Source: a virus
DNA: 64,000 bases
Direction: 5' to 3' (one strand)
Virus record (IMG/VR): IMGVR_UViG_3300007511_000007
Location: 32,001-96,000 of that record
Shown here: positions 1 through 63,609 of the stretch, in pieces
Position numbering within the stretch: the stretch's first letter is position 1
How the letters are laid out: every line of letters begins with the position of its first letter
The notes under the pieces: generated by a model
Told to the model about the DNA's origin: nothing
What the model saw: only the letters and a program-made list of their open reading frames with translations
Databases searched by the model: none
Program-made: the position numbers and the translations under genes

Positions 1-1616
1 TTCCCTTGCTCGGCGTTTTCAAAGACCCCATCTACAATCCCGCTATCCACCCGTTCGAGTTCTTCAGGAGTCATTTCCGAGAGGCTCATCTTCCCCCCCA
101 GAGCTTCACAAGCTTTTTGGAACTCTTCGCTTCCGAGATCGATTCCGGCGGTCTCTGCGGCACCCTCGACAGCTTCGGGGGTCAGGTCGGCGTAGGCGAC
201 ATCTCCTACTTCCGTATCGATAAGCTCGAACATTGCATCAATGTCCTGCTCGGAGAGGAACACAACACTACAGAGGAACACTGGAACAGATAGAGACTGA
301 AAGACCCCTCTCTCTGCCAAATTGAATGTGACCATTGCGGAGAGGGGAGAGACGCTATGGACATACCCTAACTCCATGTCCTGACCGATGACAAAAGCAA
401 TCTCGGGGGCTGTCAGAACACCAGCATTCCGACGTTTGAACCGTTGGGGGTGCTTTCTGCGAATCTTCCTCTGGCGTTTGAACGCAGGTTGGTTCTTCCT
501 TTTCCGATACCGCTGTTTCGCTTTGATCCGATTCCGGTTCCTGTTTTTCCGGTAGCGCATTCTCGATTTGACTCGGCTCAACCCTCTCTGTTTTCTTTGT
601 CTCCTTCTCGGCTTCTGCCTTACGGCTGCAGTCACAGCTTGAGCTTCCTCATAATCAAAAAGCCAATCCAGATAGTTGAAGAACCGCTCCTCATCTTCCT
701 CAGATTGGAAAATGACCTCTTCCATGAACTGCTCAAAGGGGACATCGTAGATCTCACCCTCGTACTCAAAACTCACCATTCCCGTGTTGTTCAAGAAAAT
801 GAGTTTGGCTTCTCCGTCGTAGTCTTCCAACCACACTCGAATGGTAGGGAGATTGAAATACTTGGGGATCGCACCATCAGCCTTCTTTTCGCCCTTATTT
901 TTCTCCCGCCACTTTTTCGCCCGATCTTTATTCTCCGACACTCCTGAAGGACGCCGCTTGTATTTGTCCGGGTATTTACGACGATATTTGACATCTCTCT
1001 TGTAGTCCGTCCGGTTCTTGATCTTCCGATATCGCCGCTTGGCTTTCATCCTGACTTTGCCACGATTACGCCGATAATACTTCTGGTAGTAAATCTTGGC
1101 CTTCCCTTTCTGGCTCTTTTGCCGGTCTGCCGATGACGGAAACACTTTTGTCAATCCGCCTTGAACCAGAATCCGAAAAGCCTCGTCCACTTTTTCGGCC
1201 AACCACTTTTCAGCCACGCTTGCTGCCGTGACATCAACCCGTCGTTTCATACTCCCACTTCCGTCATCCTTCCATGGATGCCCGTATTCTTCACCGGGAA
1301 CAGCTTTGGTACGAGGCCGTTTATGAAGCGGTTTCCCGTCTGTTTCACACGAAGGAGGTGGCGCATTGTATGTGGGACGCTTCGACGGCTTATCGGGGGT
1401 CGGTTGGTGCTTCTCTCGCTCTTTCTTGTGCTTGGGGGTAATCGGGAGAGCTTGTTGTTTATTCTCAGGGACATCGGGCCGGGTCTCGAAATTGTTCTCA
1501 GGAGATTCTGAAGTTGGGGGCGTCAAATCTTTCTGACTTGGTTCCGAGACCCAAGTTTTCACGCCAGGTAATTCACTGGCAGGTTGTCGGTAGCCCTTTT
1601 TCTTAACGAGGTTCAT
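1..1616 (-). CDS. Partial (runs off left edge) putative internal virion protein, >538 aa, with two R/K-rich protamine-like repeats
   Basis: Absent from the ORF track because there is no stop in the window. I translated it by hand from ATG 1616 (MNLVKKKGYRQPASELPGV...) to position 3 without a stop. It contains the SVAEKWL tag and two basic + acidic repeat units. Confidence 0.85.
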   Translation of the reverse strand, partial: MNLVKKKGYRQPASELPGVKTWVSEPSQKDLTPPTSESPENNFETRPDVPENKQQALPITPKHKKEREKHQPTPDKPSKRPTYNAPPPSCETDGKPLHKRPRTKAVPGEEYGHPWKDDGSGSMKRRVDVTAASVAEKWLAEKVDEAFRILVQGGLTKVFPSSADRQKSQKGKAKIYYQKYYRRNRGKVRMKAKRRYRKIKNRTDYKRDVKYRRKYPDKYKRRPSGVSENKDRAKKWREKNKGEKKADGAIPKYFNLPTIRVWLEDYDGEAKLIFLNNTGMVSFEYEGEIYDVPFEQFMEEVIFQSEEDEERFFNYLDWLFDYEEAQAVTAAVRQKPRRRQRKQRGLSRVKSRMRYRKNRNRNRIKAKQRYRKRKNQPAFKRQRKIRRKHPQRFKRRNAGVLTAPEIAFVIGQDMELGYVHSVSPLSAMVTFNLAERGVFQSLSVPVFLCSVVFLSEQDIDAMFELIDTEVGDVAYADLTPEAVEGAAETAGIDLGSEEFQKACEALGGKMSLSEMTPEELERVDSGIVDGVFENAEQG

Positions 1617-2010
1617 TCACACTTCCTGAGAGCCATCTTTCAGAAACCCTCTTCTCCATAGACTTCTTGCCACCGCTTCCACCAAACGGGGGTTGCCCGA
1701 ATTTCACCGCATCTTCTACTTCCTTTTTTTCCGAGAGCGGGAGACGAGCCTCCAAAAAGTCTTTGCCCAAAATCGAAAGGGCATAAGAAACTTTGTCCAA
1801 TTTCCCGTCCAGTTGATCCAGACGTTCAGGGAGACCCATAATGATGTCTCCCCCCATCTGGTACAGGTCTTCCTTGTGTTTGGACTCAGAAACCAAACGA
1901 AGTGCTCGATTTATGAGATGGCGAATGCGATGAGCTTCCACCCGGGAGGCATGTACCCCTTCGGAGAGCACGGCATAGGCGGCTTGGCTACTGGCTTGTT
2001 TCTCGGGCAT
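1603..2010 (-). CDS. Hypothetical virion-associated protein (135 aa) with C-terminal RVSERWL tag
   Basis: ORF track; downstream of a putative late promoter; overlaps the start of the next gene. Confidence 0.8.
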   Translation of the reverse strand: MPEKQASSQAAYAVLSEGVHASRVEAHRIRHLINRALRLVSESKHKEDLYQMGGDIIMGLPERLDQLDGKLDKVSYALSILGKDFLEARLPLSEKKEVEDAVKFGQPPFGGSGGKKSMEKRVSERWLSGSVNEPR

Positions 2011-2031
2011 CTTGCAGAACCCCCTATTTCT

Positions 2032-2060
2032 CTATCAAGGGTTCTACTATAGAAGAACTA
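2032..2060 (-). promoter_or_regulatory. Putative phage late promoter TAGT-N4-CTATA-N12-ATAG
   Basis: One of five similar bipartite motifs found in short gaps upstream of virion genes. Confidence 0.5.
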
Positions 2061-2069
2061 AAGGGACGC

Positions 2070-7469: not shown

Positions 7470-8345
7470 TTACCTTGTGACCGTCAGGCGAGTCAACCCA
7501 CGAGGATTGAATGCACCGAGACCGAGATTCTCGAAAATCGAGAATCCGATGGTACGTGCCTTGGGATCGTCCGCACTCAGAACGGTGAGTTCTGTACGAA
7601 CCGGGATTCTGCCGAAAAATTCCGGTTCGCAGCACACGTACACCGTGCCCACGGGAACCAGACGGCTGACGATGATCTGGGCACCCCAAAGGGTGGCCAT
7701 CAGACCGGTCTTCAGCAGAGTGGCCTGGGACTCGATGTCGAGAATGTCACGACCGAACTTCCTCAGGTCGGCGTAGTCCCGTGCATTCATGAACACACGA
7801 GCCACACGCAGGTCATGGCGTTCGATCAAGGCGAAGGCGTCCGCAAGAACGGCACCCGTGATCGGAGCGACGACCGGAATGTCAGGGTTGGTACCGGCAG
7901 CGATGCTGTCGAAGCCCTGAGTTGCAATTGCATCGAGAACCGCAAAGACACGTTCGTCTTCAGCAGCCTGAATCTGCGCCCGGCCCAGATCCTGCGCACG
8001 CTCGATGAGATCGAAGCGACGCTCTTTGATCTGAGTCAGCGGGATCTCGGGATTGCTGGCGATCTCAAAGAGCGGGAAAATCACACGCCGCGGCTTGGTG
8101 ACGGCAAGAATGTTCTCGCCTTCTTCACCCACCACGTAGGCGGTGACATCCGGGTCTTTGTCGTAGATCGGAAGCGCGCCATCGGGAAGCTGCTCAACCA
8201 GGAAGGTTTTGCGGCCAACCGAGGTGTAATCCCGGCGCAAACGCAGCGGCTGAGTCATGGACGCAGCCAGCTTCATACGACCCTGCGGAGTCTTGATGTA
8301 GTCGGAGATGATCTTCTGTTTCACAGCGTTGTTGACTTGACTCAT
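7470..8345 (-). CDS. Major capsid protein, HK97-type fold (291 aa)
   Basis: Start at MSQVNN 8345 with GGGGG RBS; last gene of the protease-scaffold-decoration block; followed by a terminator; HK97-like segments (AYVVGEEG, VFMNARDYADLRK, GLMATLWGAQIIVS). Confidence 0.85.
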   Translation of the reverse strand: MSQVNNAVKQKIISDYIKTPQGRMKLAASMTQPLRLRRDYTSVGRKTFLVEQLPDGALPIYDKDPDVTAYVVGEEGENILAVTKPRRVIFPLFEIASNPEIPLTQIKERRFDLIERAQDLGRAQIQAAEDERVFAVLDAIATQGFDSIAAGTNPDIPVVAPITGAVLADAFALIERHDLRVARVFMNARDYADLRKFGRDILDIESQATLLKTGLMATLWGAQIIVSRLVPVGTVYVCCEPEFFGRIPVRTELTVLSADDPKARTIGFSIFENLGLGAFNPRGLTRLTVTR

Positions 8346-9212: not shown

Positions 9213-10643
9213 CTAGAAGTGATCCGAAACGTCCGGGGCTTCGTCCCACAGATTCTGAAGCTGTTCAACGTCATCACTGGCGGTCTTGGGGACACTGCCC
9301 AAAGACTTGACGCCATCGCTGGCTTTCTTCGGCTGGGGCTGCTCTGCCGCTTCCTTCCCTTCTTCTTCCTCGTCATCCGAGGCTGTCATGCCGTACAGGG
9401 CTGCAAGCTCTGCATCTTCTTCCACATCCACGTCCAGACCCATCGGATCGTCGGCCGGGGAAATGTCAACGTCGAGTTCAACATCCTGCTGGGCCATCGT
9501 CTCGATGAGTGCCTCACCTTCAGCATCATCCATAGCCTCTTTCTTCTCGCCCTCTTCTTCCTTCTCTTCCTCGTCGGCTGCCTTCTTGCCGCCTTCCTTG
9601 TCGTCCCCGTCATCATCGTCGGAGTCGTCATCGGAATCGTCGGAATCATCTTCCTCGTCATCGTCGGCTTTCTTGGCTTCCTTCTTCTCGCCTTCGTCCT
9701 CTTTCTCTTCTTCCTTTTCCTCGGCCTTCTTGGAAGCGTCTACTTCTTCCTCGACCTCATCATCGTCGGCCTTCTTTGCTTCTGCCTTCTTCAATGCGAA
9801 CTTGGAGAAAGAGTCACCAAGACCGGCAGCAGCTTCTTCTACGGTGATGATACCGTCACCGTCTGAGTCGATGGCAGCAAAGACAGCCGGGCTTCCGCCC
9901 CACTCTTCCGCCGTGATGAAGCCATCACCGTCCAGATCGTACTCGTCAAAGACGTTGTGGCCCAGACTCACATCAAGGAGAGCTTCCTTCTTGTCCTCGG
10001 CTTCCTTGTCGCAACCTTCGCATTCGTCATCATCAGCCTGCTTCGGGCTGTCAGAGACATCGAAACCAGTGTCGAAAGCATCGGGCTTGTTCTGGTCAGC
10101 AATCTTTGCTTCGAGGTCAGCAATCTTCGCTTCCATCTCGGCAAACTTGCAGGCCATCGGGTCTTCCACTTCTACTTCGGCTTCTTCGTCGAGCATCTGT
10201 GAAAGCATTGCTTCTTCGTCCATCTCCACGTCGAGTTCGTCAGCAAGAAACCCACCGGCTTCCAGACGTTCCAGAGCGGACTTGATCCGGGCTTCGCCAA
10301 GATCCATGAATTCCAAAGCCTGATCTTCGATAATCGAGGCTTCGACCTTCAAACCCTTGAACATTGCCTGCGCCATACGCACGCACTTGGCCGCACGCTG
10401 CTCAACGGCAACTCGCATGGACGCTTCCTTGGCTGCGGGATGCTCGGTGCCTTCGTCGGGGTAAGCAGGGTGCTCTCCCTTGGGGTAAGGCGGTTCTCTC
10501 GGATCTTCTGCCCATGCAGAAGGATCGCCCTTCTCGTATTCTTCCCGAGAGGGATCACCTTTGTCGCCGGGATGTTCCGTACCTTCCCACGGAACTGCGG
10601 GACGCTCTGCAGCTTGACGGTCTGTCAATCTTTCTCTCTTCAT
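9213..10643 (-). CDS. Putative prohead scaffolding protein, highly acidic, with EF-hand pair (476 aa)
   Basis: Position between protease and decoration/MCP; D/E-rich; about 20 K-x-A tripeptides by hand count; loops DLDGDGFITAEE and DSDGDGIITVEE. Confidence 0.75.
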   Translation of the reverse strand: MKRERLTDRQAAERPAVPWEGTEHPGDKGDPSREEYEKGDPSAWAEDPREPPYPKGEHPAYPDEGTEHPAAKEASMRVAVEQRAAKCVRMAQAMFKGLKVEASIIEDQALEFMDLGEARIKSALERLEAGGFLADELDVEMDEEAMLSQMLDEEAEVEVEDPMACKFAEMEAKIADLEAKIADQNKPDAFDTGFDVSDSPKQADDDECEGCDKEAEDKKEALLDVSLGHNVFDEYDLDGDGFITAEEWGGSPAVFAAIDSDGDGIITVEEAAAGLGDSFSKFALKKAEAKKADDDEVEEEVDASKKAEEKEEEKEDEGEKKEAKKADDDEEDDSDDSDDDSDDDDGDDKEGGKKAADEEEKEEEGEKKEAMDDAEGEALIETMAQQDVELDVDISPADDPMGLDVDVEEDAELAALYGMTASDDEEEEGKEAAEQPQPKKASDGVKSLGSVPKTASDDVEQLQNLWDEAPDVSDHF

Positions 10644-10677: not shown

Positions 10678-13362
10678 TCAATGATCTCCCTTTTCGGAGA
10701 TAAATTTGCCGAGCCGGATCAGAGTTTGTTGCTCTGAAGACTTGGGCATACGCCCGAAAGCAGCCCGACAAGAACCTAAAAAATGCCTCAACAAAGCGTG
10801 TTTGTCCTGCGTTCCAACCTTGAGGGTCGTGCGATACAGATCCACTGGAACCTGAATCCCCACAGAAGCGTTATACTTTGCCAATTTCTCTATGAACTCT
10901 ATGTCCGAGGACGCCGTGCGGACTAGCGCGAACACTGCCGCCCTATATGCCACATCCCTCCGATCCTGTGCCGCCTGCTTAACCACATTGTCGTTAGGTT
11001 CCGCAGTTGAATCTTCAGGACTCAGATCGGCAACTTCATCCTCACGTAATTGCTCCCGCACCCTTTTCTTGACCTTGTCCAGAACCATCTTCTGGATATC
11101 GTTTTCCAGATCACCGAAAGGATCTCCACCCCCACCACCGTCATCAGCATCGCCGCCCTCATCTTCATCGGGATCACCCCAATCTCCCTTCTTGAGGGTT
11201 TGAAGAACGTTGGCGGCTTTCTGATATTTGTCTTCTTGCCACTGGGCAGGAGGTGATGACAAGACTAGTTCAGCCTGTTTGAGAACTTCGGGGGAAACGT
11301 CCTTTGCTTCAAGGACATTGCGAAGTACGGCTCCGGTGAATGCCGGAACTTCAACCCACGACGCCTCAATGAACTGAACCCCACCATCTTCTTCACTCTC
11401 ATGACCACAAAGCTCTGCGACCCGATGTTTTTGATTCTTGTCATCGTAGAAAGTGCTGCCTTTCATGAAACGAATGTGCTTACACACTTCCGTTTCATCT
11501 GCGGCAACATGGCCGCAGGTCGTACAGATTGTGAAGTTCGTGAAACAGTTATGAACGACGGCACCCTCGACAACATAAGAATGGTCATCTTCGATCCCAA
11601 GGTCATACACCCAACCCTCATAGACACTCGCCTCAGAGGATTTGACCTTGTAAAGGATATAGTCGTCCACAACATTGAGAGTCCCATCAAAGTGTGAACT
11701 TTCGGGGGTCTTGCTTGTGAATTCCCTTAGCTTGGGGGCTTCGGTATTCCCCACTTTGATGAAAAAGGCGGGAAGTTTGCCTGTCTTTTCATCTCGTATC
11801 CCAATCCCATCTACCACCACTCCTGACGGCTGGCGGGGGCTTCCTTTAATTGAGCACTCTAATCGAGAATAAACCCCACAACGACTCAGCACCGTCTGGA
11901 GTTGTGTTGCCAAGGAATAAGACACCGTAGCGGCAGAAATACTGCCCCCACCGTCCTTCACTAAGCAACCATCTCCATTGATCCATGCGCCTACAAGGTG
12001 TCCAAGGATATGTGTCGGCCACGACATGACTTCAGCAGAAATCTTTTTGCCGTGACTGTATTCCCCCGCATGGCGGTAAAACCATGCCACCATTTCTTGC
12101 CCTGAACAGTGGACCGTGCAAGTATTCCTGTCTTCTCTGTCCTGCAACCATGGTGAATTCGCATCCGGGAACTCTCGCTGGAGCAATTCAACGGTCTCTG
12201 CCGCAAACGTATCCTTTTCTTTTAGTCCGAAATGGAACTGAACCTCAACCGGCTTACCTTCTCGTTTGATGTAACAGCCCTCTGCAAGGAAATATCCAAG
12301 CAACCGAGCTTTGCCAATCGACGCACCTTCGGCATTCTCAACGTCGCGGGATCTTGGAAAACAAAGGTAATCCCCAATCTCAATTTCATCAGCCCTGACC
12401 CATTCAGGCTTCCACGATTTGAGCCGCTCCAGATCCTGTTTTGCTTCCTCAGAGTTCTTCGTGGGGTCATTCGGATTGAAAATTCGCATCTGATGCCCAC
12501 GTTTGAATCGTTGCCCCATCCTCCGTGCTGGATCAACGTGGTGTCTCGGATCGATACTCTCCCCACAACCACACCCGCAGATGGAAGCTGGACGGAACAC
12601 TAAGAACTCGTGGTTTACTGTGGCCGTGATTGCAGACGGGAGTCCCACGGCTTCGACGCTTTGAACCTTCCATGCGCTCCGCATCTGATGCTTGTTATCG
12701 ACCCGTTTGGCTTTCCCCGTGTGAGTAATTACCATATCTCCAATCTGGATATCCTCGATAGGAACTCGGGTACCGTTGTCTAACGAAACCTGAGTCCCAG
12801 GGAGAAAACACCCCATCGATAAGGTCGCAACCTTACCAGAGATGATATCCTTGATGAGTTCTTTGTGCTGCCGATCCGTGGCGACCAGAATATCGATGTA
12901 CAACGATGGCCCAATGTCCCTGGCCACAGCATCAATGATCCGACCTTTGCTCAACTCCTCAAGCTGGATGTGTTCGAGGAAGTTATGTCCCCCGACGAAG
13001 CTCTTGTAGGCTTTGAGGAGAACGCCTCGTGTCCACGCATCGTGGTTGTTGTTAACGAACTTGTCACATTCTGTCTTGATCCGGAAATCCGAAAACTTCC
13101 TCATGATCCGCTGACCATCTTCGGTCACAGAACCAAGTTTGGCGTTCGGAACACTTTCCACATCTACAGAAGCAACAATGGTTGCATGAGATAGCAAATA
13201 CTTCGAGGGGTCAAACGGCTGTCCCAGAATCTCCGACGCTTGTTCAATCAGATTTTTGGAGAGGGTCGTTTTGGGTTTTGACGCCTTCCGGACCTTACTC
13301 CAAGACCGTCCTGTGATCTGCGGTTGGGTTACCGACGCGGCTGCGTATTTAATGAAAGGCAT
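10678..13362 (-). CDS. Putative prohead (maturation) serine protease, intein-containing (894 aa precursor, about 473 aa spliced)
   Basis: NNNHDAW, NFLEH, GRIIDA, LSMGC and FIEASWVEVPAF motifs resemble HK97/assemblin-type proteases; located upstream of the scaffold. Confidence 0.75.
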   Translation of the reverse strand: MPFIKYAAASVTQPQITGRSWSKVRKASKPKTTLSKNLIEQASEILGQPFDPSKYLLSHATIVASVDVESVPNAKLGSVTEDGQRIMRKFSDFRIKTECDKFVNNNHDAWTRGVLLKAYKSFVGGHNFLEHIQLEELSKGRIIDAVARDIGPSLYIDILVATDRQHKELIKDIISGKVATLSMGCFLPGTQVSLDNGTRVPIEDIQIGDMVITHTGKAKRVDNKHQMRSAWKVQSVEAVGLPSAITATVNHEFLVFRPASICGCGCGESIDPRHHVDPARRMGQRFKRGHQMRIFNPNDPTKNSEEAKQDLERLKSWKPEWVRADEIEIGDYLCFPRSRDVENAEGASIGKARLLGYFLAEGCYIKREGKPVEVQFHFGLKEKDTFAAETVELLQREFPDANSPWLQDREDRNTCTVHCSGQEMVAWFYRHAGEYSHGKKISAEVMSWPTHILGHLVGAWINGDGCLVKDGGGSISAATVSYSLATQLQTVLSRCGVYSRLECSIKGSPRQPSGVVVDGIGIRDEKTGKLPAFFIKVGNTEAPKLREFTSKTPESSHFDGTLNVVDDYILYKVKSSEASVYEGWVYDLGIEDDHSYVVEGAVVHNCFTNFTICTTCGHVAADETEVCKHIRFMKGSTFYDDKNQKHRVAELCGHESEEDGGVQFIEASWVEVPAFTGAVLRNVLEAKDVSPEVLKQAELVLSSPPAQWQEDKYQKAANVLQTLKKGDWGDPDEDEGGDADDGGGGGDPFGDLENDIQKMVLDKVKKRVREQLREDEVADLSPEDSTAEPNDNVVKQAAQDRRDVAYRAAVFALVRTASSDIEFIEKLAKYNASVGIQVPVDLYRTTLKVGTQDKHALLRHFLGSCRAAFGRMPKSSEQQTLIRLGKFISEKGDH
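11548..12810 (-). mobile_element. Intein (421 aa) with LAGLIDADG endonuclease in prohead protease
   Basis: N-terminal CFLPGT, block B TVNHEF, LLGYFLAEG and LVGAWINGDG, C-terminal VYDLGI...VVHN followed by +1 Cys. Confidence 0.92.
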
Positions 13363-13937
13363 TAGACCTTCACCTCGACTTCTTTCCCATCAGTCTTGAT
13401 CGAAATCTCGACTTCCTGCTGGGGTTGTCTGGCGATGTCATCCTCCCGAATCAAAAACATGCAACCGGTGCAGCCCATGAGCCGAACCCGCTTCCCTTCT
13501 TGCATCTTGTAAATGGCTTTGCGCAGAGTGTTCTCACGACACCGGGGACAAATGAACTTACCACTGTCCTGTTCCTGTTTCGTGGCCCGATACTTTCGAT
13601 CTTTTGCTCCCCAATACAAAGCCTTCTTGACAAAGGCACTCGCTACACGGGAAGCATTGGGGCCACCCGAAACTTCGTCTACCGGCAATCCCCCGGGCAC
13701 ACTGTCATGTGTGGGAGGATCAACCCAACAACTGTCATTGAGTTTTCGCAACTCTTCGACCGGGTATCTTTTATTGCCGTATGAGAACTGCACTTCTGCC
13801 ATTCCAATTGCAGGGAAAAGAGCAACGATCCGGCCCGCCTGTTCTACAGGCGCAAGCTCAGGGACAACCTGATTACCCACCTCAAAGTGGGTCGCAATCT
13901 GCTGATAATTCGGGTTCAGGTGCCCTTGCCGTTTCAT
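13362..13937 (-). CDS. Hypothetical head-module protein with Zn ribbon (191 aa)
   Basis: CPRC...CTGC; internal RVASAFVKKA tag preceding the Zn domain. Confidence 0.8.
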   Translation of the reverse strand: MKRQGHLNPNYQQIATHFEVGNQVVPELAPVEQAGRIVALFPAIGMAEVQFSYGNKRYPVEELRKLNDSCWVDPPTHDSVPGGLPVDEVSGGPNASRVASAFVKKALYWGAKDRKYRATKQEQDSGKFICPRCRENTLRKAIYKMQEGKRVRLMGCTGCMFLIREDDIARQPQQEVEISIKTDGKEVEVKV

Positions 13938-13945: not shown

Positions 13946-15235
13946 CTATTCTGCGGACAGGTCAAAGGAATGGTTCGCCTCCTTCGACTCACCGTCCTCT
14001 TTCTCGTCCTCGCTGGCCAGCTTCGCCACACTCTTGAACGCGCCGTTGATGTCGCCTTCGGCATCCTTGAGCAACTTCATGATGTTGCCCGTTCCGCTCT
14101 TGACCAGACGGGTTCTCTCTGCAAAGCCCTTGAACCACTTCTTGATGTCTCCAGCGAAGTTGAAGATCTTCTTGGATACATTGTCCGCCGCACCGCCCAA
14201 CCAATCTCTGACCGAAACGATCCAGTCAGCAATTCCGGCGGTCTTGACTTCTTCCTTCGTCAACGAAGCACTCTTGGCAACAATCTTAAGGCCCCGCACC
14301 GCGGCTGCAGCGTGGATCAGGTCTTCTTTGGTTTGTTCAAAGATTTCCTCGACGATGCCGCCCGCTTCCGACCCCAACCGCTCAGAAATCTTCTGGAAGA
14401 ACTCACCAGCCTTCTGACCCGGTTTCACTTCGTCTTCCTCAGCCACCATCTGTTCAATACCGGGCACCTTCTCTTGCAAGAAAGCCGTGAAGTTCAACAT
14501 AGCCTTTTCGGTTTCCACCAGATACTTGCCCTTGGCTCGCATCTCTTTGGCAGCTTTCTTCAGTTCATTCAAGCCGTCCTTCTCTTCTTTGGACAAAGCC
14601 TTGAATTTGCTGATGGCCGCTTCAAACTGCTTGGTGAGAATTTCGAGTTCCTGGCGAACCTCAACGACGTGGTTCACTTTTGCCCGAACCTGAGCAGGAC
14701 TCAAACCCGGTAGTGCTTTGATGACCTGCGGACCCGCTGCCAATTTGACATCCTGCACGAGAGTCCGCACTTGCTCAAAAGGGGAGACTTCCTCCGCTAC
14801 CTTTTCGTCTTCAGCCTGCTTCTCGTCTTCGGCTTGCTTTCCCGGCTGCGGTGCTTGCTGATCTTCAACCGTCTTGTCGTTGCCAAGGTCACCGTCTTCG
14901 ACTCTTTCCCGAAGCTCACGGTTTTCCTGCTGTGAGAATTCCCCCTTCATGTAACCTTCGTCGGCATCGCCTTCCTGCGGCCCAGCTTTTTCTTTCCCAA
15001 TATCCTCGGGATCAAAACCAGGCTCTTTCACGGGGTCGTCGCCGGTGAGGGCTTCTTTGCCGATGCCTGCCCGCTTTTCGACGAAATCGGAAAGCATGTC
15101 GCAGCGCAGCGCAAACTCTTTGGCAACTTTCTCTGGAACTCCCAATGCCTCAAAGTCATGCTCAAACAATGACGCCATGTTGTCGAGAGCGGCAGTGACT
15201 TCCAAGGCTCCCTTTTTGGTCATCTTTTGTTCCAT
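13946..15235 (-). CDS. Putative internal head/core protein (429 aa), rich in K-x-A
   Basis: Start reassigned to MEQKM 15235 (GGAGG RBS); KQAEDEKQAEDEKVA repeat; coiled-coil character. Confidence 0.75.
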   Translation of the reverse strand: MEQKMTKKGALEVTAALDNMASLFEHDFEALGVPEKVAKEFALRCDMLSDFVEKRAGIGKEALTGDDPVKEPGFDPEDIGKEKAGPQEGDADEGYMKGEFSQQENRELRERVEDGDLGNDKTVEDQQAPQPGKQAEDEKQAEDEKVAEEVSPFEQVRTLVQDVKLAAGPQVIKALPGLSPAQVRAKVNHVVEVRQELEILTKQFEAAISKFKALSKEEKDGLNELKKAAKEMRAKGKYLVETEKAMLNFTAFLQEKVPGIEQMVAEEDEVKPGQKAGEFFQKISERLGSEAGGIVEEIFEQTKEDLIHAAAAVRGLKIVAKSASLTKEEVKTAGIADWIVSVRDWLGGAADNVSKKIFNFAGDIKKWFKGFAERTRLVKSGTGNIMKLLKDAEGDINGAFKSVAKLASEDEKEDGESKEANHSFDLSAE

Positions 15236-15335
15236 CTTCTCTTCCTCCGTAAGTTTCAAAATCAGCCCCCGACCTACGGGGGAAATTCTCTTTTGCAACG
15301 CAAAGAACGGCATCGACTGTTTGACAGTCTTCCGC

Positions 15336-15379: not shown

Positions 15380-18300
15380 TTATTTACCACCAAGAGGTGG
15401 CTCAGTCTTAAACTTATCGCCCCGCTCCGGGTCTCGATCCCGAAGCATCTCTTGGATCAATTGCAACGCTCGATTCCCCTCCTGAGGGAACTCCGCTAAG
15501 GCCGAAGCAACTGATTCCATCTGCGCCAATTCCAGTTCTTTGCCCAGTTCTCGAATTTCGTCTTCAGAGGCGTCACTCTTTATCGCTTCAAGGAAAGTCT
15601 CTACCTGTGCGCCAGTGTCCCGAAGACAAGAATCAAGCGTCTGCGATACCTTCTTCTCGACATTCTTGGTCTTCTTGTCCTTTTTCTTCTTTCCCTTCTC
15701 GCCGTCCTCTGCGCCTTCGTCCTCATCCAACTGTTCATAGGCACTCTTGATTGCAGTATGAGAATAGGTCATGTCATTGAGGAGTAATCTTTCCAACATA
15801 TTCCTGGCATAGGCCGCTTGAGCCTCCCCAACTACCGGCCTCCCATCTTCGCCCACCTCATTGAGAGCATCAAAAATATCGGCATAGGGGCTGTCTTCAC
15901 CGCCAGCAAACTCGTAAAGTTGCTGATTGTTCATCTGCCCCATGGCTCCCTTGATGCCCTCTCTACCCTGGGGGCCACAAAAGTCTTGCATTGATCCAAG
16001 TAGCAGAGAGGGGTCTTGTCCCGGGGTGTCCTTCAAAGCCTTGGCTAAAGTGACCACCTGTGGAGAAAGCTCCTGCCCGTCGGGGAGATCGGGGGTTTCA
16101 TCGTTTACGACCTGAGCCAGGCACACTCCGTTGTACATCTGATCTAACTTCATCAGTCGTTCTTTGTCAGGCTCATCTTCGTTCATCAATTCATCAAGTT
16201 GCCCTCGGATATTCTCAGAAAGCTCCTCACGTTCTTTCGGAGATGCCTCCGTGAGAGCTTTGTAACTATCCTTGGCGAGGTCTTTGGAATCGGGATCGAC
16301 CCCAAGTGACTCGATTGTGCCTTCAGGTGTTTCCCGCCACTTCTTTTCGGCTACCTCCTTCTTCTCCTGTTGTTTCTTCTCGGCCTTTTGTTGTTTCTGC
16401 TTTTCGGCTACAACCTTTTCGCCCTCTTCAAGAGTAGTGAGGATTATGTCCATCGAATTCTTATCTTCGAGCTTCCCAAGCAATCGCTCTGCCCTGAACT
16501 TTGCCTCTTCAAGAGCATCCTTCGCTTTCTCCGCATCCTCAATCGCAAAGGCACTTTCCAGATTACCAAGTGCTTCCTCCAGGGCTGCTTTCTCCTCATC
16601 GGGGCCTTCTAATTCCGCAAGCTCCTTCTTTGCCCCGGAGACCCCTGCCTCTTCCTCTTTGGGTTCCTTCTCGCTTTCACCCTGCTCATCGGCTTCATCA
16701 CTTTTGTACTTCGCCTGTTCTTCAGGGCTGAGGCTGTTCCAGCCCACCTGTGTAACTTCACCGCCTTCGGTTTGGTGATCAAACTTCTTGCCCACAGCCC
16801 ATTCAGGAGTATCCCCGGCCATCATCAAATGCCAGAATGCCACTCTCCCCGGAGAGGGGATGTCCTCGGAAATGAGCCAACGAGATGCAATCCTCTTGTA
16901 GTTCAAGGACATGTCTTTGTCGTCACCACGATCTCCGTGGTCAACATCGGGATCATCCTCGGGTTTGACCTGCTCCCGGCGAAGATCATTGCGAGGCGGC
17001 TTCTTCTTTGGTTCTGGCCGCACCAAACGTTCCGCTTCTTCGTCTTCCTTTTCCCCATGGTCTTTGGTGGCTTGCTTGAACTTTTCCTCACACGACCCGC
17101 ACACAGCGGGCATCTCAAGGACTTCTGCGTGTTCATGTACTCTTTGTGGACAACGGCATTGGTTTTTGTTTCCGCAGATCGGGCACGTCAAACGCCAATG
17201 CTCAGGCTGCAGGATCTGCATAATCTGAGCTACAGTCTCCCCTCTCCGAACATGCAGGTCATACAAACGGTCGCCCGAAGCACTCCGATAGAGCTTCAGT
17301 TTTGCTTCATAAAGGGCTGACTGGCGCACCCCTTGATCACAATCTTCCAGATAGCCTGCCGCAATCAACTCATCCACAGCATCGTCATCCACCTGGTGAC
17401 CCCGAAGAAAGTACCCTTTTGGAGTCTTCAGAATAGGCTGCTGGTGAATGTCCATGTCCTGCATAATGGCCTGTTCATATCCGGTTAGGCTGGATTGCAG
17501 TCCCAGATCTCCCCGGAGCACCCACTCATCCCCATCACCTTCTGGGCCATCGGTAGCATTGTTGATGTTGATGATGGCAACCTTCTTTCCTTTCTGCACC
17601 GACCCGTCATGGACATAAGAATCTTCCAGCCCCGGCACCAGATAGTCGGAACGCAAGATCGAAGTTGTGTGCCCAACGATGTCTGCCACTTCCTCAAGGG
17701 CTTTCTTGAACTCTTCCTTGAGGATCTTGTCTTTTTCTTTCCTCGCATGGGGGAGGGCCGGGCCTTTCTTACGAACTTTTCCCAGAGCCTTTCGCATCTC
17801 ACGGTTAGCGTGGAAGCCTCGCATATCCTTGGCAGTGATCTCGTAAGGTTTGAGATACTCATTGATATCAGATGCGCTCACGTCGGGGAGGACTTCTTCG
17901 TCATCTCCCTTCCCTTTGGCCGCTGCTTTCAAGGCAGAAATCAACTTTGAGTCCGTAACTTCCTTGGTGTGTTTGACCCCAGACTTGCCAGTATACTTCA
18001 GGACCGCCTTCCCTTCTTTAAAGGATATATGGCTGGCTTTCCATCCCGTAACCCCGTAGTGGCCTTTGTCTGCGGAGTCCTCATTCCCGACTCGCTCATA
18101 AGTCTCGTTGATGAGAGCAACCGCCATCGCAGTTTGTTTCTTCTTGTCGTCCTTGGCGTTGAGATCCTTCTCTACTTGCTTACGGAGCTTGGGGTATTCC
18201 TTCTCAAGCTGTTCGAGCTTCTTAGCCTTCTCCCGGTGCCGATGCTGAACTTGCCCATCTGTGTATTCATAGACGACCTGCTCATCGCCATCCTTGTTCT

Positions 18301-21300
18301 TGATCTTTTTCTTGTCTTTGTACTTGGCCGCAACCCGGATCGCCTGTGCTACCATTCTACCGGCTTCTTTGCTGATCCCCTCCCAGTAAGGGTCGACGGA
18401 ATAATCAGAGGGCAGTTCACCCTCCTCCTTGAGCTTCTCGACTCCTCTCTCAACATAGATGTCTTGATAGTCCCGGTCATTTCGGATCACCCAAGTACAG
18501 AACTTCCACAAAGCGTCCAACTCTTCTCGTCTCGGGGGGCGAGCAATTTCAGGATGAGCCAAATAATGCTCAACGATGTCGTGAAGGGCTGGTTCAAGAA
18601 TATCCGCTGGGCCGTCCCCGATCACATAACCTGCTTGATTACCTGGGTCCATCTGCAAAGTCTCAGGATGAATTGCCCAATACCCGGCTTGCTTCGAGAA
18701 ACGAATTGCTACCCTCTTCGAACTCCCCTCAACGCCCCGACGGGCCAGTTGGAAACGCTTCCCCAACTCCGGGTAGAAACTAAAAACTTCCTGCGGTACT
18801 TCTTTGCCCCCCATCAGAGCCTTTGCGATTTCCCTCTTGTGCCTTGACCGATAAAACGCCAAATCCATCTCTCGTTTAGCGTCAAGTTCCTTCTTTTCCT
18901 TGCGGTACCCCACTTCTTCAGCAAACTGTTTTTCTAGCCTCTGACGCATAAAGACCTTTTTTGCCAATCCCTTGAGAACCCCTTTCTCTCTCCTTGTTCG
19001 GTTCGGGGTCGCAAACAAAGTGCCCCCGAGAAACGTAGCGAACTCTGCCTCCGTCGCCATTTCTCTAGGGTTAATGCCCTGTTCTCTCACCCATGCATCA
19101 AAAGGCAGATCCGGGCGTCTGATCTCTCGGAGCAGTCCTGAGTCACGGATGAACTCAGGTAAGGACATCTGCCAAAACTCCTTTCGAGATGCCCCTACCC
19201 TTTTCTCCAAATGCTCGTGCATTTCAGCATTGTTACTCCCCCACCCATGCGCGAGGGGATTTGCTGGAGTCAATGAGATCTTCTCCAGCTTCGGAAGTCC
19301 CCACACCTCGATGTCCTCCACATCCCACGCCCCTGTGGGCAGCTTCCCCTTGAATTCGCTATCAACGCCCTCCAGATAGCCCAACGTCGTATGCGGGCGA
19401 TAAATGTGCGGTGAGACATCTACAAGGTCAAAGCCTGCCTCCTGGTACGCCTCAGCAAGCCTCCAGCGTAATTCGGAGATAGGTCTCTCAAACCGAATGT
19501 TCATATGCGGGATCGCCAAGTCTTTCTCAGCATTACGGAAATAATCGACCTGATGGAACTCGGCTTTGGTCGTCGGCGTACCCAACCCACCAGGGATGAT
19601 GGTTTCGGCAATATCGAGGAATTCCTGTTCTCGCCCTTTCACATCCCCGACAATCAAGAAGGTGATATGCTCCGGGGAATCATCATTGGCCAGTTCAGGA
19701 AACTGCTTCCCGAGTTTTTCGGGAACTCGGATGAAGAATCCTGCCGATGTGGAATCCCCCGTGACGCTGCCGTCCCCACCGGCAGTCTTACGGCTTTTCT
19801 CTTCCCAATACTCTGGGGGGTTGGACCATTCGTTCGACTCTCCCAGCAATTGCTTTGCTCTCTGAGAGTACCACCACAAAGTGGAGCTTGCAGAATCAAT
19901 GAACTCTTCCACTGCTTTGGGCTTCGGTCCCGGTGGCTCATCTTTCAAACTGTATGGGACTCCAATATCAAACCCACTGTTTTTGACCCCAATCCACGCA
20001 CGCCTCAGTTCCTCCTTCTGCTCCTCAGGAAGTGCCATGACTTGCTGCATGGTCACATTGTAATGCTCACAAATGAGATCAACCCACGGATTTAGCTTTC
20101 TATCGGTGATATTTTTGATGCTCCGAAGGAGGTGGTCAACTTCCACGCCATCTATAGGTCGGCCTAATGCGTCCCGGTACTCCATGTCGATTCTGTCAAT
20201 GAAGTCCCCGGCCATATCCAAGGGGCCATCCCCAGTCCAATGCCCCGCATCGGGAACCTCTGGAATTTTCTCTGGATTCAACTCCCACCATGAGGCAGTT
20301 TTCAGGAACCGGGTTGCTACCTTTTGAGCAGGCCCCCTACGCTTCGTGATTTCGTCCATGACCGCATCCGTTAGATCGGGTTTCTTTGCCAACTCGGGCT
20401 TCTCCAGCATCAACTCTCGGGCAATCTGGAATGGAATCTGTCGTTCCGGGCCTTCCAAATTATGAATCTCAAACACTAGCCGTTGATCCACAAGAGGGCG
20501 TTGCAGGAGCTTAAGGAAGTTGTCCGCTTCCTTCGGCTTCATGCCCAGAGTGATCTTACGCAACGTTTCTTGCTGCTCAGGGGACAAGAATGAGATTGGA
20601 GACCGAACCTGAATCCCCAATCCCGCAAGATCCAACAAGAGTCCGACCCCCTTATCATTCAGGTGTCCGGAAAGGTAGCTGGCAAACGCGTTGTTCTCCC
20701 GCACCATCTCAGCGATGACTTTGAGAAGCCCCAACTTCTGCATGAGCTTCAGAGAGTCTCGGGCGTTCTTTTCCCTGATAACATTCTCCACCATGAGCTT
20801 GCCGATTGCTTCCCAAGGAGCTTTCTTCATCTTGGGGGCATTGCGTTTGATAGCGGCAGCAATCTGGGGTGGAATCGTGAAACCGTACTTAGCAACAAAC
20901 TTCACGGCACGCAATAAGCGAGTTGGATCATCAGAGAACGTTTTGTCTGGATCAGACGGGCAACGGAGTTCTCCTTTCTGAAGATCACGTAAGCCACATC
21001 CCGTGATATCCACGATCTCAGCTTTATCCGGCCCCTTAGCGATCTCAGCCAATTCCCACATCAAGGTATTGAGCGTAAATTCCCGCCTCAACACATCTTC
21101 TTTAATTGTCGCAGGTTCAACCGTATGGGGTTTGTACCCTTTCCCGCCCTGGCCTCCATATGACTCTTTTCGGGCATTGGCAATCTCAAGTACCTCACCC
21201 TTCATGTCATGGCCGTCCAGATCCCAATGATCCTTCACAGTAACGATAGCAACCCCGTAGTTGTTCGTGACCACACTGGTTCTGACAGGGATCGCTTTGA

Positions 21301-39346: not shown

Positions 39347-39652
39347 TTACCACAAACCTGTCGTGAGATAGCTACGTTTGAGGAACCATTTCTCCAGAGT
39401 CTTGAGAGCAGTTCGGTTACCAGACCAGAATTCAATGGAGTCGTAGTCTTCTTTGATCCCCAGGTCAGGAATCGGGGAAACTCCTGCCATGGCTATTTTG
39501 CGATCCCGAAAAGAACGCAAAAGACCGGCCAGATTCTTGATTTCATGCCCATGGTACACCTTCAGCCGATACTCGGCTCGGACTTCCGCTTCAAGAAACC
39601 TCTTGGCCACGGATTTCGCCATGACAACTCGGCGTTCAGAGGGTTTCGCCAT
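39347..39652 (-). CDS. Hypothetical protein with N-terminal SVAKRFL tag (101 aa)
   Basis: GAGGT RBS; first gene after the late promoter motif. Confidence 0.75.
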   Translation of the reverse strand: MAKPSERRVVMAKSVAKRFLEAEVRAEYRLKVYHGHEIKNLAGLLRSFRDRKIAMAGVSPIPDLGIKEDYDSIEFWSGNRTALKTLEKWFLKRSYLTTGLW

Positions 39653-52397: not shown

Positions 52398-52413
52398 TGT
52401 TGTCTCTTTTTTC

Positions 52414-59935: not shown

Positions 59936-60082
59936 TGATATCCTGCTTCCCAATAAAGAACCTTCACGAATTCGGATGCCGTTTACATTTGGTAACAACC
60001 CCCTCTAAGACAGTTCCACCGAACCGCCCCACCCGACTGCCTCTTTCTCTAGCCAGCCCCCAGGCGCACAAGGAGGTGTAGT

Positions 60083-61858: not shown

Positions 61859-62446
61859 TCATGGTATCAACCCCTGTTCACGATAACTCAGGATTAACTT
61901 ACCATGAATGAACTGGAAGAATTCCAAATACTGGTGCCGCCGCAACATGGCTGCAACTATCGGCTCCGAAGACTGATTGGCATCATCCTGCAAAACTGGC
62001 ACCACCGCATTCTGCCAGATGTCCCATGGAACCAACATGGGAAACTGACTTCGATCCTGTGCCCGCAAAAGTCCTTTGGTACTCAAACTCACCTGAACGT
62101 ATTTGGAAGGAGCGGCTCGATTCGTAGTAGGGAAATTCAAGACTGCACTCCCAGCTAACAAATAACCAACCCCAATCGCCAACTTCGCATTACCGGAAGG
62201 AGTGTCAGCAAACTCACCGGGATGCAATGTCGCATCTCGAATAATCCCGGTCCCACTTCTGGTAACATGATCTCTTTCCAGATCCCCATCCCGATCATAT
62301 GTCCCACTACCAGTTAAATCAGTAGGAGGCAAAGCAGCACCTCTGGCCATTCCCCGGCAAGCAGCATAACCCCCACGTAACCCAAGACGTTTCCCAGTTC
62401 TCGGATCAGTTGGAACCAAAGTGAATGTCTTCTTGTAAATAGGCAT
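61859..62446 (-). CDS. Hypothetical protein (195 aa)
   Basis: Start MPIYKK with GGAGGGAGG RBS. Confidence 0.6.
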   Translation of the reverse strand: MPIYKKTFTLVPTDPRTGKRLGLRGGYAACRGMARGAALPPTDLTGSGTYDRDGDLERDHVTRSGTGIIRDATLHPGEFADTPSGNAKLAIGVGYLLAGSAVLNFPTTNRAAPSKYVQVSLSTKGLLRAQDRSQFPMLVPWDIWQNAVVPVLQDDANQSSEPIVAAMLRRHQYLEFFQFIHGKLILSYREQGLIP

Positions 62447-62532
62447 CCCGAAATTACCTCCCTCCAAAAATGCACCACCTATGACCAAATTACCGAACCA
62501 CCCAAAAAACATGCTCGCAAAAAAATGCCCTC

Positions 62533-62651
62533 CACTTTTTCAAAAATGCAAAAAGACACAACTCACTTTTGCAAAATACTCCTTTCAGGAAACAAAATCA
62601 CAATTCACTTTTTGGGTTCTCGTCAGGAAATCACTTTTGAAAACTACTTTT
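62533..62651. repeat. AT-rich tract with five (C/T)ACTTTT direct repeats
   Basis: Copies at 62533, 62564, 62606, 62632 and 62645; several form TTTT-N1-2-AAAA palindromes. Confidence 0.55.
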
Positions 62652-63369
62652 GATGAGGTTTCTTTTTTGGTGGGAATAGAGGATGTTTGGGGTCTTTTAT
62701 AGGTTTACTATACATTTCACCTATTGGCAGCCCTCTTAGTTCAAAAAGCACAAGACCGAAAAACGGTTACGACTCAGACTAAAAACAGAAGCGGTACAAC
62801 TATCATTCTAGCGATCTTCCCAAGGTAAGATCTCTTTTAACTTAATGTCTTCTTCAACATCAGTTTCCCTTTTCGAGATCTGGACCCTCGGTTCATTTGG
62901 GTTACCTGATGAATCTCTTCCAAACGGATTCTTTCCCTGATTCCAAATTCAGGGAAGAGATTCATGAGACTCCCATACAAGCCTTACCAGAGGTTCGCCT
63001 AACTTCTAGGGGAACATGGGTTAGGCAACATCGCCCACCGTGGCTCTTTTTTCCCAATAGTATCTACCCATTCAGAAATTCAGGGTTCAATGGATTCCTC
63101 TATTGGAAACTCGGGTAGTAATTGTCAAAGAATTCGACGGGTCCAAGGTAGCGCAACGTGTATCTCTACCAGTTTTTCAACCGCACCTTCACTCGTTAAG
63201 GAATCCTGAAAAGGGATACGGACTCCTCACTCAGGCCCCATTGTGTTTCCTTTGACACACCGCAGGGCGTTTAAGGTGGCTCTTGATTTTCAACCGAGGA
63301 AGATCAAGTGGACCCGACCTACCTACATGGGACACTATAGGGGAACGGAGGAAACGGTGTCAAGAGGTT

Positions 63370-63609
63370 TTAATCGGCCCAACGAAAAGGAAACAGCTTG
63401 ATGGTTTTCCCCTTGGCTTTGGGTTTGTCAGGGGTGGTCACGAAGATAGTAGGCATACGATGTTCGTCGTAACCCATACCAGAAATAATCCCCTTTTTGT
63501 TGCGATATTTGCCATACAAGATGCGATCTCCCTTTTTGGGTATTCTCAAACCCCCTGTGAGGAATCGAGAAGCTACTCTTTTGGCTGAAGGTTTTCTCAC
63601 CGTAACCAC
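63370..63609 (-). CDS. Small KOW/SH3-like protein with N-terminal RVASRFL tag (79 aa)
   Basis: KGDRILYGKYRNKKGII segment after the tag. Confidence 0.7.
   Translation of the reverse strand: MVTVRKPSAKRVASRFLTGGLRIPKKGDRILYGKYRNKKGIISGMGYDEHRMPTIFVTTPDKPKAKGKTIKLFPFRWAD

What the first reader, a model, noticed from the sequence alone, without database searches (positions are those of the whole stretch)
1200..63582. Shared RVASRFL-like peptide tag on 11 unrelated proteins: candidate capsid cargo-addressing system
Seen: x-[VI]-[AS]-x-[RK]-[FWY]-L or a close variant occurs as SVAEKWL (~1200-1220), RVSERWL (~1629-1650), RVASAFV (~13630-13649), RIASRWL (~16874-16894), RVAIRFS (~18695-18715), KVATRFL (~20303-20323), RVSERFL (~32742-32762), TVSDRYL (~33647-33667), NVAKRYL (~33697-33717), RVARRWL (~35747-35767), IVAERWT (~36697-36717), SVAKRFL (~39593-39613) and RVASRFL (~63559-63579). 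It sits at N-termini, C-termini or inter-domain linkers. The DNA differs between copies, so conservation is at protein level. I did not see it in the ~20 replication proteins, the terminase, the portal or the MCP. Established: T4 internal proteins use a cleavable capsid targeting sequence, and encapsulin cargo uses short terminal peptides that bind an HK97-fold shell. Inference: this is a portable amphipathic helix that loads diverse cargo into the prohead, usable at any position in a protein.
Basis: partly seen in the sequence, partly recalled or inferred. Interest (0 to 1): 0.9.

Follow-up and report, generated by a model that had tools for sequence, protein, structure and literature searches.

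The report
Shared docking helix, huge-phage cargo proteins
An uncultivated group of giant bacteriophages puts the same seven-residue helical motif on many otherwise unrelated proteins, including RNA-repair and DNA enzymes encoded among the head genes. It is most likely an address label that loads them into the virus head for injection, but no experiment has tested this.

Summary
All 13 listed peptides lie in genuine minus-strand ORFs. The core [VI]-[AS]-x-[RK]-[FWY]-[LIM] occurs 13 times in the 112-kb contig against 0.85 expected, and 8 of these lie in the first 35 residues (0.07 expected). It is also enriched in an independent 485-kb relative (11 vs 3.0). It is conserved at the same position in orthologues of only 30-45% identity, is written in freely varying codons, and recurs across a clade of more than 580 huge-phage contigs whose capsid protein is about 90% identical.

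Structure prediction puts the motif in a short helix next to disordered linker. Carriers share nothing else. Across the clade they include topoisomerase IB, a CCA-type nucleotidyltransferase, RNA-repair phosphoesterase and HAD modules, an SNF2 helicase, NUDIX, a SAM lyase and a papain-like peptidase. This repertoire resembles that of injected "polyvalent" proteins. Replication proteins, terminase, portal and capsid protein lack the motif. In five near-complete relatives, 16 of 38 tags lie within 25 kb of the capsid gene (4.7 expected).

Capsid addressing is the best-supported reading (about 0.45) but is unproven. There are no virion data, no receptor and no conserved cleavage site. This scan has noted different shared tags in other huge phages.

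The parts
1200..1220 (-). tag copy, internal (aa 133) in an 879-aa protein with a weak SWIM hit; the ORF runs off the left window edge
1630..1650 (-). tag copy 8 residues from the C-terminus of the 135-aa ORF 1603-2010; kept at the same position in the LR745208.1 orthologue
13629..13649 (-). tag-like helix (basic residue replaced by Ala) in the 191-aa ORF 13362-13937: SH3-like barrel, disordered linker, this helix, then a zinc ribbon. This gene is conserved just upstream of the protease gene across the clade
15380..21523 (-). 2047-aa multi-enzyme (polyvalent-type) ORF between portal and protease: CCA/polyA-type nucleotidyltransferase at aa 34-271 and topoisomerase IB core at aa 1093-1289. Tag copies lie between the detected domains, at 20303-20323 (aa 401), 18695-18715 (aa 937) and 16874-16894 (aa 1544)
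32742..32762 (-). N-terminal tag of ORF 31959-32813 (probable start at 32780). The family has 653 homologues and most aligned ones keep the tag, some in tandem. AF2 places it in helix aa 2-13, followed by a disordered stretch
33647..33667 (-). N-terminal tag (starts at residue 7) of the 281-aa ORF 32840-33685, which has hydrophobic, membrane-like segments near its C-terminus
33697..33717 (-). tag copy 4 residues from the C-terminus of the 241-aa ORF 33682-34407
35747..35767 (-). N-terminal tag (starts at residue 7) of the 124-aa ORF 35411-35785. The phrog_37844 match covers aa 19-117, so it excludes the tag
36698..36718 (-). degenerate tag copy (aa 213) in the 274-aa DUF7007 protein 36530-37354. 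The tag plus the next ~25 residues resemble the N-terminus of ORF 35411-35785
39593..39613 (-). N-terminal tag of the 101-aa ORF 39347-39652, directly downstream of a sigma-factor gene; conserved in the LR745208.1 orthologue
63559..63579 (-). N-terminal tag of the 79-aa ORF 63370-63609; the best-scoring copy
7470..8345 (-). major capsid protein (291 aa), untagged. About 90% identical in more than 580 IMG/VR contigs while neighbouring proteins are 30-66% identical; candidate receptor (inference only)
9213..10643 (-). 476-aa very acidic protein with EF-hands, in the position of a scaffold; untagged; candidate receptor (inference only)
10678..13362 (-). prohead maturation protease interrupted by an intein; untagged
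13946..15313 (-). 455-aa charged, helical, scaffold-like protein; untagged
21570..24869 (-). portal protein interrupted by an intein; untagged
25397..27328 (-). terminase large subunit; untagged

Best explanation
The motif A(-2)-x-[KR]-[VI]-[AS]-x-[RK]-[FWY]-[LM]-x-[ASG] is a short linear docking motif. It forms one or two turns of amphipathic helix (Val, Ala, the aromatic residue and Leu on one face, the basic residues beside it) and sits on a flexible tether at an end of a protein or between modules.

Most likely it attaches accessory enzymes to the inside of the assembling prohead, either to the scaffold core or to the inner face of the capsid shell. The enzymes would then be enclosed, stay with the DNA and be injected. 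This resembles the capsid-targeting sequences of T4 internal proteins and P1 DarB, and the cargo-loading peptides of encapsulins.

The cargo would be an early-acting toolkit: a tRNA/RNA-repair set (CCA-adding enzyme, 2H/CPD phosphoesterase, HAD module), topoisomerase IB, an SNF2 helicase, NUDIX, a SAM lyase, a papain-like peptidase and many small unknown proteins.

Shown: the motif is real, under protein-level selection, portable, helical and tethered, and statistically associated with the head gene module.
Inferred: that the partner is a prohead component, that the proteins are packaged and injected, and whether the tag is later cut off.
For: - Enrichment and N-terminal bias. Independent enrichment in LR745208.1 and a chance-level reverse-motif control.
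- Coding-strand specificity in 80 related loci. A profile gives 50 real hits against 1 in reversed sequences at 8 bits or more.
- Conserved at the same place in orthologues of 30-45% identity whose flanks have diverged. Most aligned homologues, 43 of 653 found for ORF 31959-32813, keep it, some with tandem copies.
- Codons vary freely. Carriers are otherwise unrelated.
- AF2: N-terminal helix then a disordered linker; a low-confidence helix in a linker. Polar linker composition upstream of internal and C-terminal copies.
- Head context: three copies in the multi-enzyme ORF between portal and protease. The same slot in relatives holds variable giant ORFs, often tagged at the N-terminus and at junctions.
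- In five near-complete relatives, 16 of 38 profile matches lie within 25 kb of the MCP gene against 4.7 expected.
- Domain repertoire of carriers resembles that described for virion-delivered polyvalent proteins (PMC5512222; for 2H phosphoesterase, for SNF2 and Pol-beta nucleotidyltransferases).
- Replication and nucleotide-metabolism enzymes, terminase, portal and MCP are untagged.
- Precedents: the T4 CTS is a 10-20 aa N-terminal signal (PMC7411985). The P1 DarB signal lies in the first 30 residues and needs residues 6-10 (PMC9024508). Here N-terminal tags start 4-10 residues after Met, most often at residue 7.
Against: - No member of the tagged clade is cultured and no virion proteome exists. 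The cultured relatives phage G and Tunturi_5 lack the tag in their head modules.
- No receptor has been identified.
- I saw no conserved protease cleavage motif after the N-terminal tags.
- More than half of the tags in complete relatives lie far from the head genes.
- Several giant head-module ORFs have only degenerate copies or none.
- C-terminal and internal placement is unlike the T4 and P1 signals.
- Earlier scan notes on other shared tags in huge phages were given low odds for the capsid-loading reading when checked later, and one tag turned out to go with an enzyme.
Confidence: 0.45

Rival explanations
1. The motif docks onto a phage or host hub that is not part of the virion, such as a replication or transcription factory, a chaperone or unfoldase, a cytoskeletal or compartment protein, or a nucleic-acid repair complex. 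It gathers accessory enzymes in the infected cell and does not load them into the head.
For: All features of a short linear docking motif are met. In LR745208.1 and in complete relatives most tagged genes are scattered through the genome. Placement at either end or internally is typical of hub-binding motifs such as clamp-binding peptides (established knowledge). Several carriers act on nucleic acids.
Against: Tags cluster significantly around the head module, and three copies sit in an ORF between portal and protease. DNA polymerase-associated and replication proteins are untagged. The motif does not fit the clamp-binding consensus QL[SD]LF, the PIP box or APIM. The carrier repertoire resembles that of virion-delivered polyvalent proteins (PMC5512222).
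Confidence: 0.25
2. The motif is mainly a recognition element for a processing or modifying enzyme: the prohead protease, the papain-like C39-type peptidase encoded nearby, or another enzyme. It would mark where polyproteins are cut or where a residue is modified, without itself directing localisation.
For: Copies lie at module junctions of the 2047-aa ORF. An internal Met lies six residues before the third copy. A C39-like peptidase is encoded in the contig, and its LR745208.1 orthologue is itself tagged. An earlier scan case found a shared phage tag that goes with a radical-SAM enzyme rather than the capsid.
Against: A cleavage mark 4-10 residues from a protein's own N- or C-terminus would remove only a few residues, which makes little sense unless it is coupled to targeting. 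No fixed cleavage dipeptide accompanies the motif. Tandem copies occur. No modifying enzyme is consistently adjacent in the 80 loci examined; neighbours were not fully annotated.
Confidence: 0.2
3. The motif is a generic membrane-seeking or aggregation-prone amphipathic helix, or a compositional or chance pattern with no specific partner.
For: The motif is short, basic and hydrophobic. One carrier (32840-33685) has membrane-like segments. The regex was defined after looking at the data.
Against: It is 15-fold enriched, with 100-fold N-terminal enrichment. It was validated in an independent genome and the reverse-motif control is at chance. Position-specific conservation of Val, Ala, Arg, the aromatic residue and Leu in diverged orthologues is far more specific than lipid-binding helices require.
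Confidence: 0.05

Closest known systems
Capsid targeting sequence (CTS) of phage T4 internal proteins IPI-III and Alt
   Same: A short peptide shared by unrelated proteins of one phage. It is N-terminal in about half of the cases here. The proposed role is incorporation into the prohead followed by injection. The cargo acts early against host defences.
   Different: The sequence is different. Here the motif also works at C-termini and between domains, sometimes in tandem. No conserved prohead-protease cleavage site follows it. It is conserved as a consensus across a whole clade of hundreds of phages. Function is untested.
N-terminal packaging signal of phage P1 DarB (PMC9024508)
   Same: The signal lies within the first 30 residues, with residues 6-10 critical, which is close to the position of the N-terminal tags here (residues about 7-13). 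The cargo is a giant helicase/methylase-type anti-restriction protein, and an SNF2 helicase is tagged here.
   Different: The P1 Dar proteins share no consensus signal, whereas here one consensus serves many proteins. There is no sequence similarity.
Polyvalent proteins of phages and conjugative elements (Iyer, Burroughs, Anand, de Souza, Aravind 2017; PMC5512222)
   Same: The 2047-aa ORF and its positional counterparts string unrelated conflict-type enzyme domains (Pol-beta nucleotidyltransferase, 2H phosphoesterase, SNF2 and others) in one polypeptide encoded among portal and terminase genes, and are predicted to be delivered with the DNA.
   Different: The described phage polyvalent proteins use fusion to MuF or portal domains as the head anchor. 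None was found here; a 7-residue motif recurs instead, and the same motif is also on single-domain proteins.
Encapsulin cargo-loading peptides
   Same: Short terminal peptides on unrelated cargo enzymes that bind the inner face of an HK97-fold shell. Position can be N- or C-terminal depending on the family.
   Different: The consensus is different. Encapsulins are cellular compartments without DNA packaging. Binding of this tag to the MCP is only an inference.
C-terminal encapsidation segments of prohead proteases (HK97 gp4, from memory; SPN3US gp245 propeptide, PMC7411985)
   Same: A short terminal segment proposed or shown to carry a protein into the prohead.
   Different: These serve a single protein and are not a shared consensus. 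The protease here carries no copy of the tag.

Membership tests
T4-type capsid targeting sequence | N-terminal 10-20 residue propeptide | tested here: inconclusive
   15 of 48 non-redundant profile hits are within 40 residues of the N-terminus, 11 are near the C-terminus and 22 are internal. N-terminal copies start 4-10 residues after Met.
T4-type capsid targeting sequence | Removed by the prohead protease at a consensus site directly after the signal | tested here: not met
   No conserved residue pattern follows the tags beyond a preference for a small residue two positions later (by-eye comparison). Actual cleavage cannot be tested in silico.
T4-type capsid targeting sequence | Sufficient to carry a foreign protein into the prohead; cargo found in virions and ejected | not testable with these tools
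   No cultured member. Phage G and Tunturi_5 lack the tag.
T4-type capsid targeting sequence | Sequence similarity to the T4 signal | not tested
   No comparison was run; from memory the two consensus sequences are unrelated.
Polyvalent proteins (for ORF 15380-21523) | Two to fifteen unrelated effector-type domains in one polypeptide | tested here: met
   Pfam finds PolyA_pol/CCA nucleotidyltransferase and a topoisomerase IB core, plus undetected segments. Relatives add HAD_SAK_1 and tRNA-ligase CPD domains.
Polyvalent proteins (for ORF 15380-21523) | Encoded among portal/terminase-type virion genes | tested here: met
   The ORF lies between portal (21570-24869) and protease (10678-13362). The same slot is occupied in 25 loci.
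Polyvalent proteins (for ORF 15380-21523) | Fusion to a MuF or portal domain as head anchor (common, not universal) | tested here: not met
   No MuF or portal domain was found in the ORF by Pfam or PHROGs.
Encapsulin cargo-loading peptide | Binds a pocket on the inner face of the HK97-fold shell protein | not testable with these tools
   Multimer co-folding is not available. The only pointer is the exceptional conservation of the MCP.
Twin-arginine (Tat) signal peptide | Consecutive Arg-Arg in S/T-R-R-x-F-L-K followed by a 12-20 residue hydrophobic region and a signal-peptidase site | tested here: not met
   Only one window copy has Arg-Arg. Residues after the tags are polar or charged, and copies occur at C-termini and internally.
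Sliding-clamp binding motifs (QL[SD]LF, PIP box, APIM) | Consensus match and presence on the replicative polymerase and repair enzymes | tested here: not met
   The consensus differs. Clamp, clamp loader, primase, exonuclease and helicase genes are untagged.
Double-glycine leader of C39-peptidase substrates | N-terminal leader ending in Gly-Gly at the cut site | tested here: not met
   Only one copy (63559-63579) is followed by Gly-Gly.

The most novel reading that the evidence does not exclude
A tailed-phage equivalent of encapsulin cargo loading. One position-independent consensus helix, used singly, in tandem or between the modules of polyproteins, would bind the ultra-conserved capsid shell (or its scaffold). 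It would load a changeable set of counter-defence enzymes, including a complete tRNA/RNA-repair kit and topoisomerase IB, into the head for injection. The injected proteome of hundreds of uncultivated megaphages could then be read directly from sequence.
Probability: 0.3. Interest if true: 0.85.

Novelty: new variant of a known kind. Interest (0 to 1): 0.66.

Why it matters
If the tag is a head-addressing signal, it gives a sequence rule for predicting which proteins of uncultivated 250-620 kb phages travel in the particle and act in the first seconds of infection. It would show that RNA-repair enzymes, topoisomerase IB and a SAM lyase can be pre-made, injected weapons. It would also provide a seven-residue, position-independent handle for loading foreign proteins into large phage capsids. 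Known capsid-targeting signals (T4, P1) are N-terminal and specific to one phage, and P1 has no consensus at all. A clade-wide consensus usable anywhere in a protein would therefore be a distinct variant. Even if the partner is not the capsid, the motif defines a previously undescribed protein-interaction hub in a widespread phage lineage.

Tried and rejected
- DNA-level explanation (repeat, translation signal): rejected, because codons vary freely.
- Paralogy of carriers: rejected. Only the tag aligns between carriers, apart from one other short shared C-terminal segment in two proteins.
- Tat signal, clamp-binding motifs and double-glycine leader: consensus and context do not fit (see membership tests).
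- Using cultured relatives to borrow virion proteomics: phage G (L094) and Tunturi_5 (L095) head modules carry no tag, so their data do not help.
- Profile search of solved structures with the tag alignment: no hit.
- ESM Atlas search for ORF 31959-32813: nothing usable.
- PHROGs and Pfam for most small carriers: no family.
- A copy of the tag in the scaffold candidates, protease, portal, terminase or MCP: none found. There is only a loose resemblance at the MCP N-arm and an internal MCP heptad below threshold.
- A longer shared module (tag plus the invariant stretch after it in ORF 31959-32813) in other proteins: only a weak match to the last module of the 2047-aa ORF.
- A ribosome-binding site before the internal Met preceding the third tag of the 2047-aa ORF: not convincing.
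- Co-folding of the tag with MCP, scaffold or portal could not be run, because the structure tool takes single natural sequences only.


Full report
**What the window is.** The window is bases 32001-96000 of a 112,371-base virus record. Nearly all genes are on the minus strand. The capsid protein (7470-8345) is 87% identical to that of the 485-kb uncultured phage LR745208.1, 49% to Tunturiibacter phage Tunturi_5 and 38% to Bacillus phage G. It has more than 580 relatives at about 90% identity in IMG/VR, on contigs of up to 619 kb. The contig therefore belongs to a large clade of uncultivated huge phages.

The head module, read in the direction of transcription, is:
- terminase large subunit (25397-27328)
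- portal with an intein (21570-24869)
- a 2047-aa ORF (15380-21523)
- a charged helical protein (13946-15313)
- a 191-aa protein (13362-13937)
- prohead protease with an intein (10678-13362)
- a very acidic EF-hand protein (9213-10643)
- a decoration-like protein (8356-9021)
- the MCP

. A replication module (clamp loader, primase, clamp, exonuclease, SbcCD-like, RecD2 helicase, ribonucleotide reductase) lies at 40772-59998.

**Check of the observation.** All 13 peptides are present on the minus strand at the stated places, inside real ORFs. The strict core [VI][AS].[RK][FWY][LIM] occurs 13 times in the contig's 102 proteins, against 0.85 expected from within-protein shuffles. Eight copies are in the first 35 residues against 0.07 expected.

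Because the pattern was defined on these data, I tested it on an independent genome. LR745208.1 has 11 copies against 3.0 expected, and none of 200 shuffles reaches 11. The reverse-order motif is at chance level in both genomes. In 80 related loci the coding strand has 33 copies and the opposite strand 4. A profile built from 47 distinct copies finds 50 matches at 8 bits or more in real sequences and 1 in reversed sequences.

The extended consensus is Ala at -2, a basic residue at 0, then Val, Ala/Ser, any residue, Arg (Lys), Tyr/Phe/Trp, Leu/Met, any residue, and a small residue. Codons are fully varied, and carriers share no other similarity. Three further N-terminal copies lie just outside the window, one of them on a 1239-aa SNF2 helicase.

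**Conservation.** Five carrier proteins have LR745208.1 orthologues of 30-45% (one 66%) identity that keep the motif at the same position while the flanks differ. ORF 31959-32813 belongs to a family of 653 proteins. Most of the 43 aligned members carry the motif a few residues before an invariant stretch. Some carry two copies in tandem, and a subgroup lacks the aromatic residue.

The stand-alone topoisomerase IB of LR745208.1 has tag-like copies at its C-terminus. In the window, the topoisomerase module is internal to the 2047-aa ORF, with tags before and after it. A SAM-lyase-like protein in locus L073 has the tag at both ends. The element is therefore portable and independent of position.

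**Anatomy.** In five contig proteins the seven-residue window starts exactly at residue 7 after a Met, including an internal Met in the 2047-aa ORF. Across the clade, N-terminal copies start 4-10 residues after Met.

AF2 models give two views:
- For ORF 31959-32813 the tag is in helix 2-13, followed by a disordered stretch and then long helices (mean pLDDT 64, so only the secondary structure is used).
- For ORF 13362-13937 it is a low-confidence helix in the linker between a confident SH3-like barrel and a zinc-ribbon domain.

The 20 residues upstream of internal and C-terminal copies are enriched in polar, disorder-promoting residues (0.66 vs 0.56, p = 4e-4). This is the anatomy of a short linear docking motif.

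**What carries it.** In the window and its relatives the recognisable domains on tagged proteins are:
- CCA/polyA-type nucleotidyltransferase
- topoisomerase IB
- 2H/LigT and tRNA-ligase CPD phosphoesterases
- the HAD domain of "Swiss-army-knife" RNA-repair proteins
- SNF2 helicase
- NUDIX hydrolase
- a SAM-lyase-like domain
- a C39-like peptidase
- SWIM-containing proteins

Many small carriers have no family. Iyer et al. (PMC5512222) list 2H phosphoesterase, SNF2 and Pol-beta nucleotidyltransferases among polyvalent-protein domains. They argue from architecture and gene context that such proteins are packaged in the head and delivered with the DNA. The 2047-aa ORF meets two defining features of that class but lacks the MuF or portal fusion often used as the head anchor.

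**Link to the head.**
1. Three tags lie in the ORF between portal and protease. In 25 loci with a full 10 kb upstream of the MCP, this slot always holds a large variable ORF. Nine carry tags at 7 bits or more, others carry degenerate copies and a few carry none.
2. The 191-aa protein with the tag-like helix is a conserved member of the head module.
3. In five near-complete relatives of 252-619 kb, 38 profile matches were found. Sixteen lie within 25 kb of the MCP gene against 4.7 expected (Poisson 4e-5).
4. A promoter-like element (TATAG, 7-10 bases, WATAG) occurs six times in the contig, always intergenic and on the coding strand. It lies upstream of two tagged genes and of the scaffold-like gene. 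The pattern was defined after looking, so this is weak support.
5. MCP is far more conserved than any neighbour: 88% against 30-66%. This would fit a surface with many partners, but that is inference only.

**What is missing.** No virion proteomics exist. The cultured relatives lack the tag in their head modules. No receptor is known. No conserved cleavage motif follows the tag. Most tags in complete genomes lie outside the head region.

Earlier notes of this scan describe different shared tags in other huge phages. One was later given only 12/100 for the capsid-loading reading. Another turned out to go with a radical-SAM enzyme.

**Verdict.** The motif is a genuine, conserved, portable docking helix (confidence about 0.95). 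The best-supported mechanism is prohead addressing of injected accessory enzymes (about 0.45). Next come docking to a non-virion hub (about 0.25) and recognition by a processing or modifying enzyme (about 0.2).

It works like the T4 and P1 capsid-targeting signals and like encapsulin cargo peptides, but it is not a sequence member of any of them. It differs in being a clade-wide consensus that is used at either end, internally and in tandem. I class it as a new variant of a known kind.

Noticed in passing
window 36554-36628 (-) and L002:14019-14093 (-): A second shared element: a 25-residue C-terminal segment, 56% identical (E 3e-4), in the DUF7007 protein 36530-37354 and in the 879-aa SWIM-like protein. 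Both proteins also carry the first tag.
   Followed up: partly
window 21570-24869, 10678-13362, 56609-59998 (all -): Portal, prohead protease and ribonucleotide reductase are each interrupted by an intein (Hint/LAGLIDADG or HNH hits). Free-standing LAGLIDADG and GIY-YIG homing endonuclease genes lie at 4592-7282 and 35782-36573.
   Followed up: no
window 7470-8345 (-): The MCP is about 90% identical across more than 580 IMG/VR contigs, while portal, terminase, protease and decoration protein are 54-66% identical to LR745208.1 and most other proteins 30-50%. This is unusually strong constraint on the shell protein.
   Followed up: partly
window 9213-10643 (-): The protein in the scaffold position is extremely acidic and carries EF-hand calcium-binding loops (aa 230-270). 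Its N-terminal Asp-x-Ser-x-Trp-Ala-x-Asp stretch, conserved in relatives, resembles part of the invariant disordered stretch of the tagged family of ORF 31959-32813. The profile scores are weak.
   Followed up: partly
contig-wide intergenic regions; e.g. window 51577-52317 and 53267-53680 upstream regions: Two promoter-like element types are visible. A GAGTAGTAT / GGAGTATATA box lies upstream of many non-structural genes. A TATAG-N7-10-WATAG box lies upstream of late or tagged genes (six copies, all intergenic, all on the coding strand).
   Followed up: partly
L073:1593-2459 (+): A 288-aa DUF3293/SAM-lyase-like protein in a related phage carries the tag at both its N- and C-termini. T3-type SAM lyases are anti-restriction enzymes (from memory), so this may be a tagged counter-defence enzyme.
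   Followed up: no
window 32840-33685 (-): This tagged 281-aa protein has two long hydrophobic segments near its C-terminus. It could be a membrane-inserting ejection protein.
   Followed up: no
window 16895-16912 (-): An in-frame Met lies exactly six residues before the third tag inside the 2047-aa ORF. This reproduces the spacing seen at true N-termini and may be a relic of gene fusion or an internal start. No convincing ribosome-binding site lies upstream.
   Followed up: partly
window 39714-40310 (-): A sigma-factor-like gene sits immediately upstream of the tagged 101-aa ORF and at the boundary between the replication module and the late region, as in phage G, where gp3 is a sigma factor near the head genes.
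   Followed up: no
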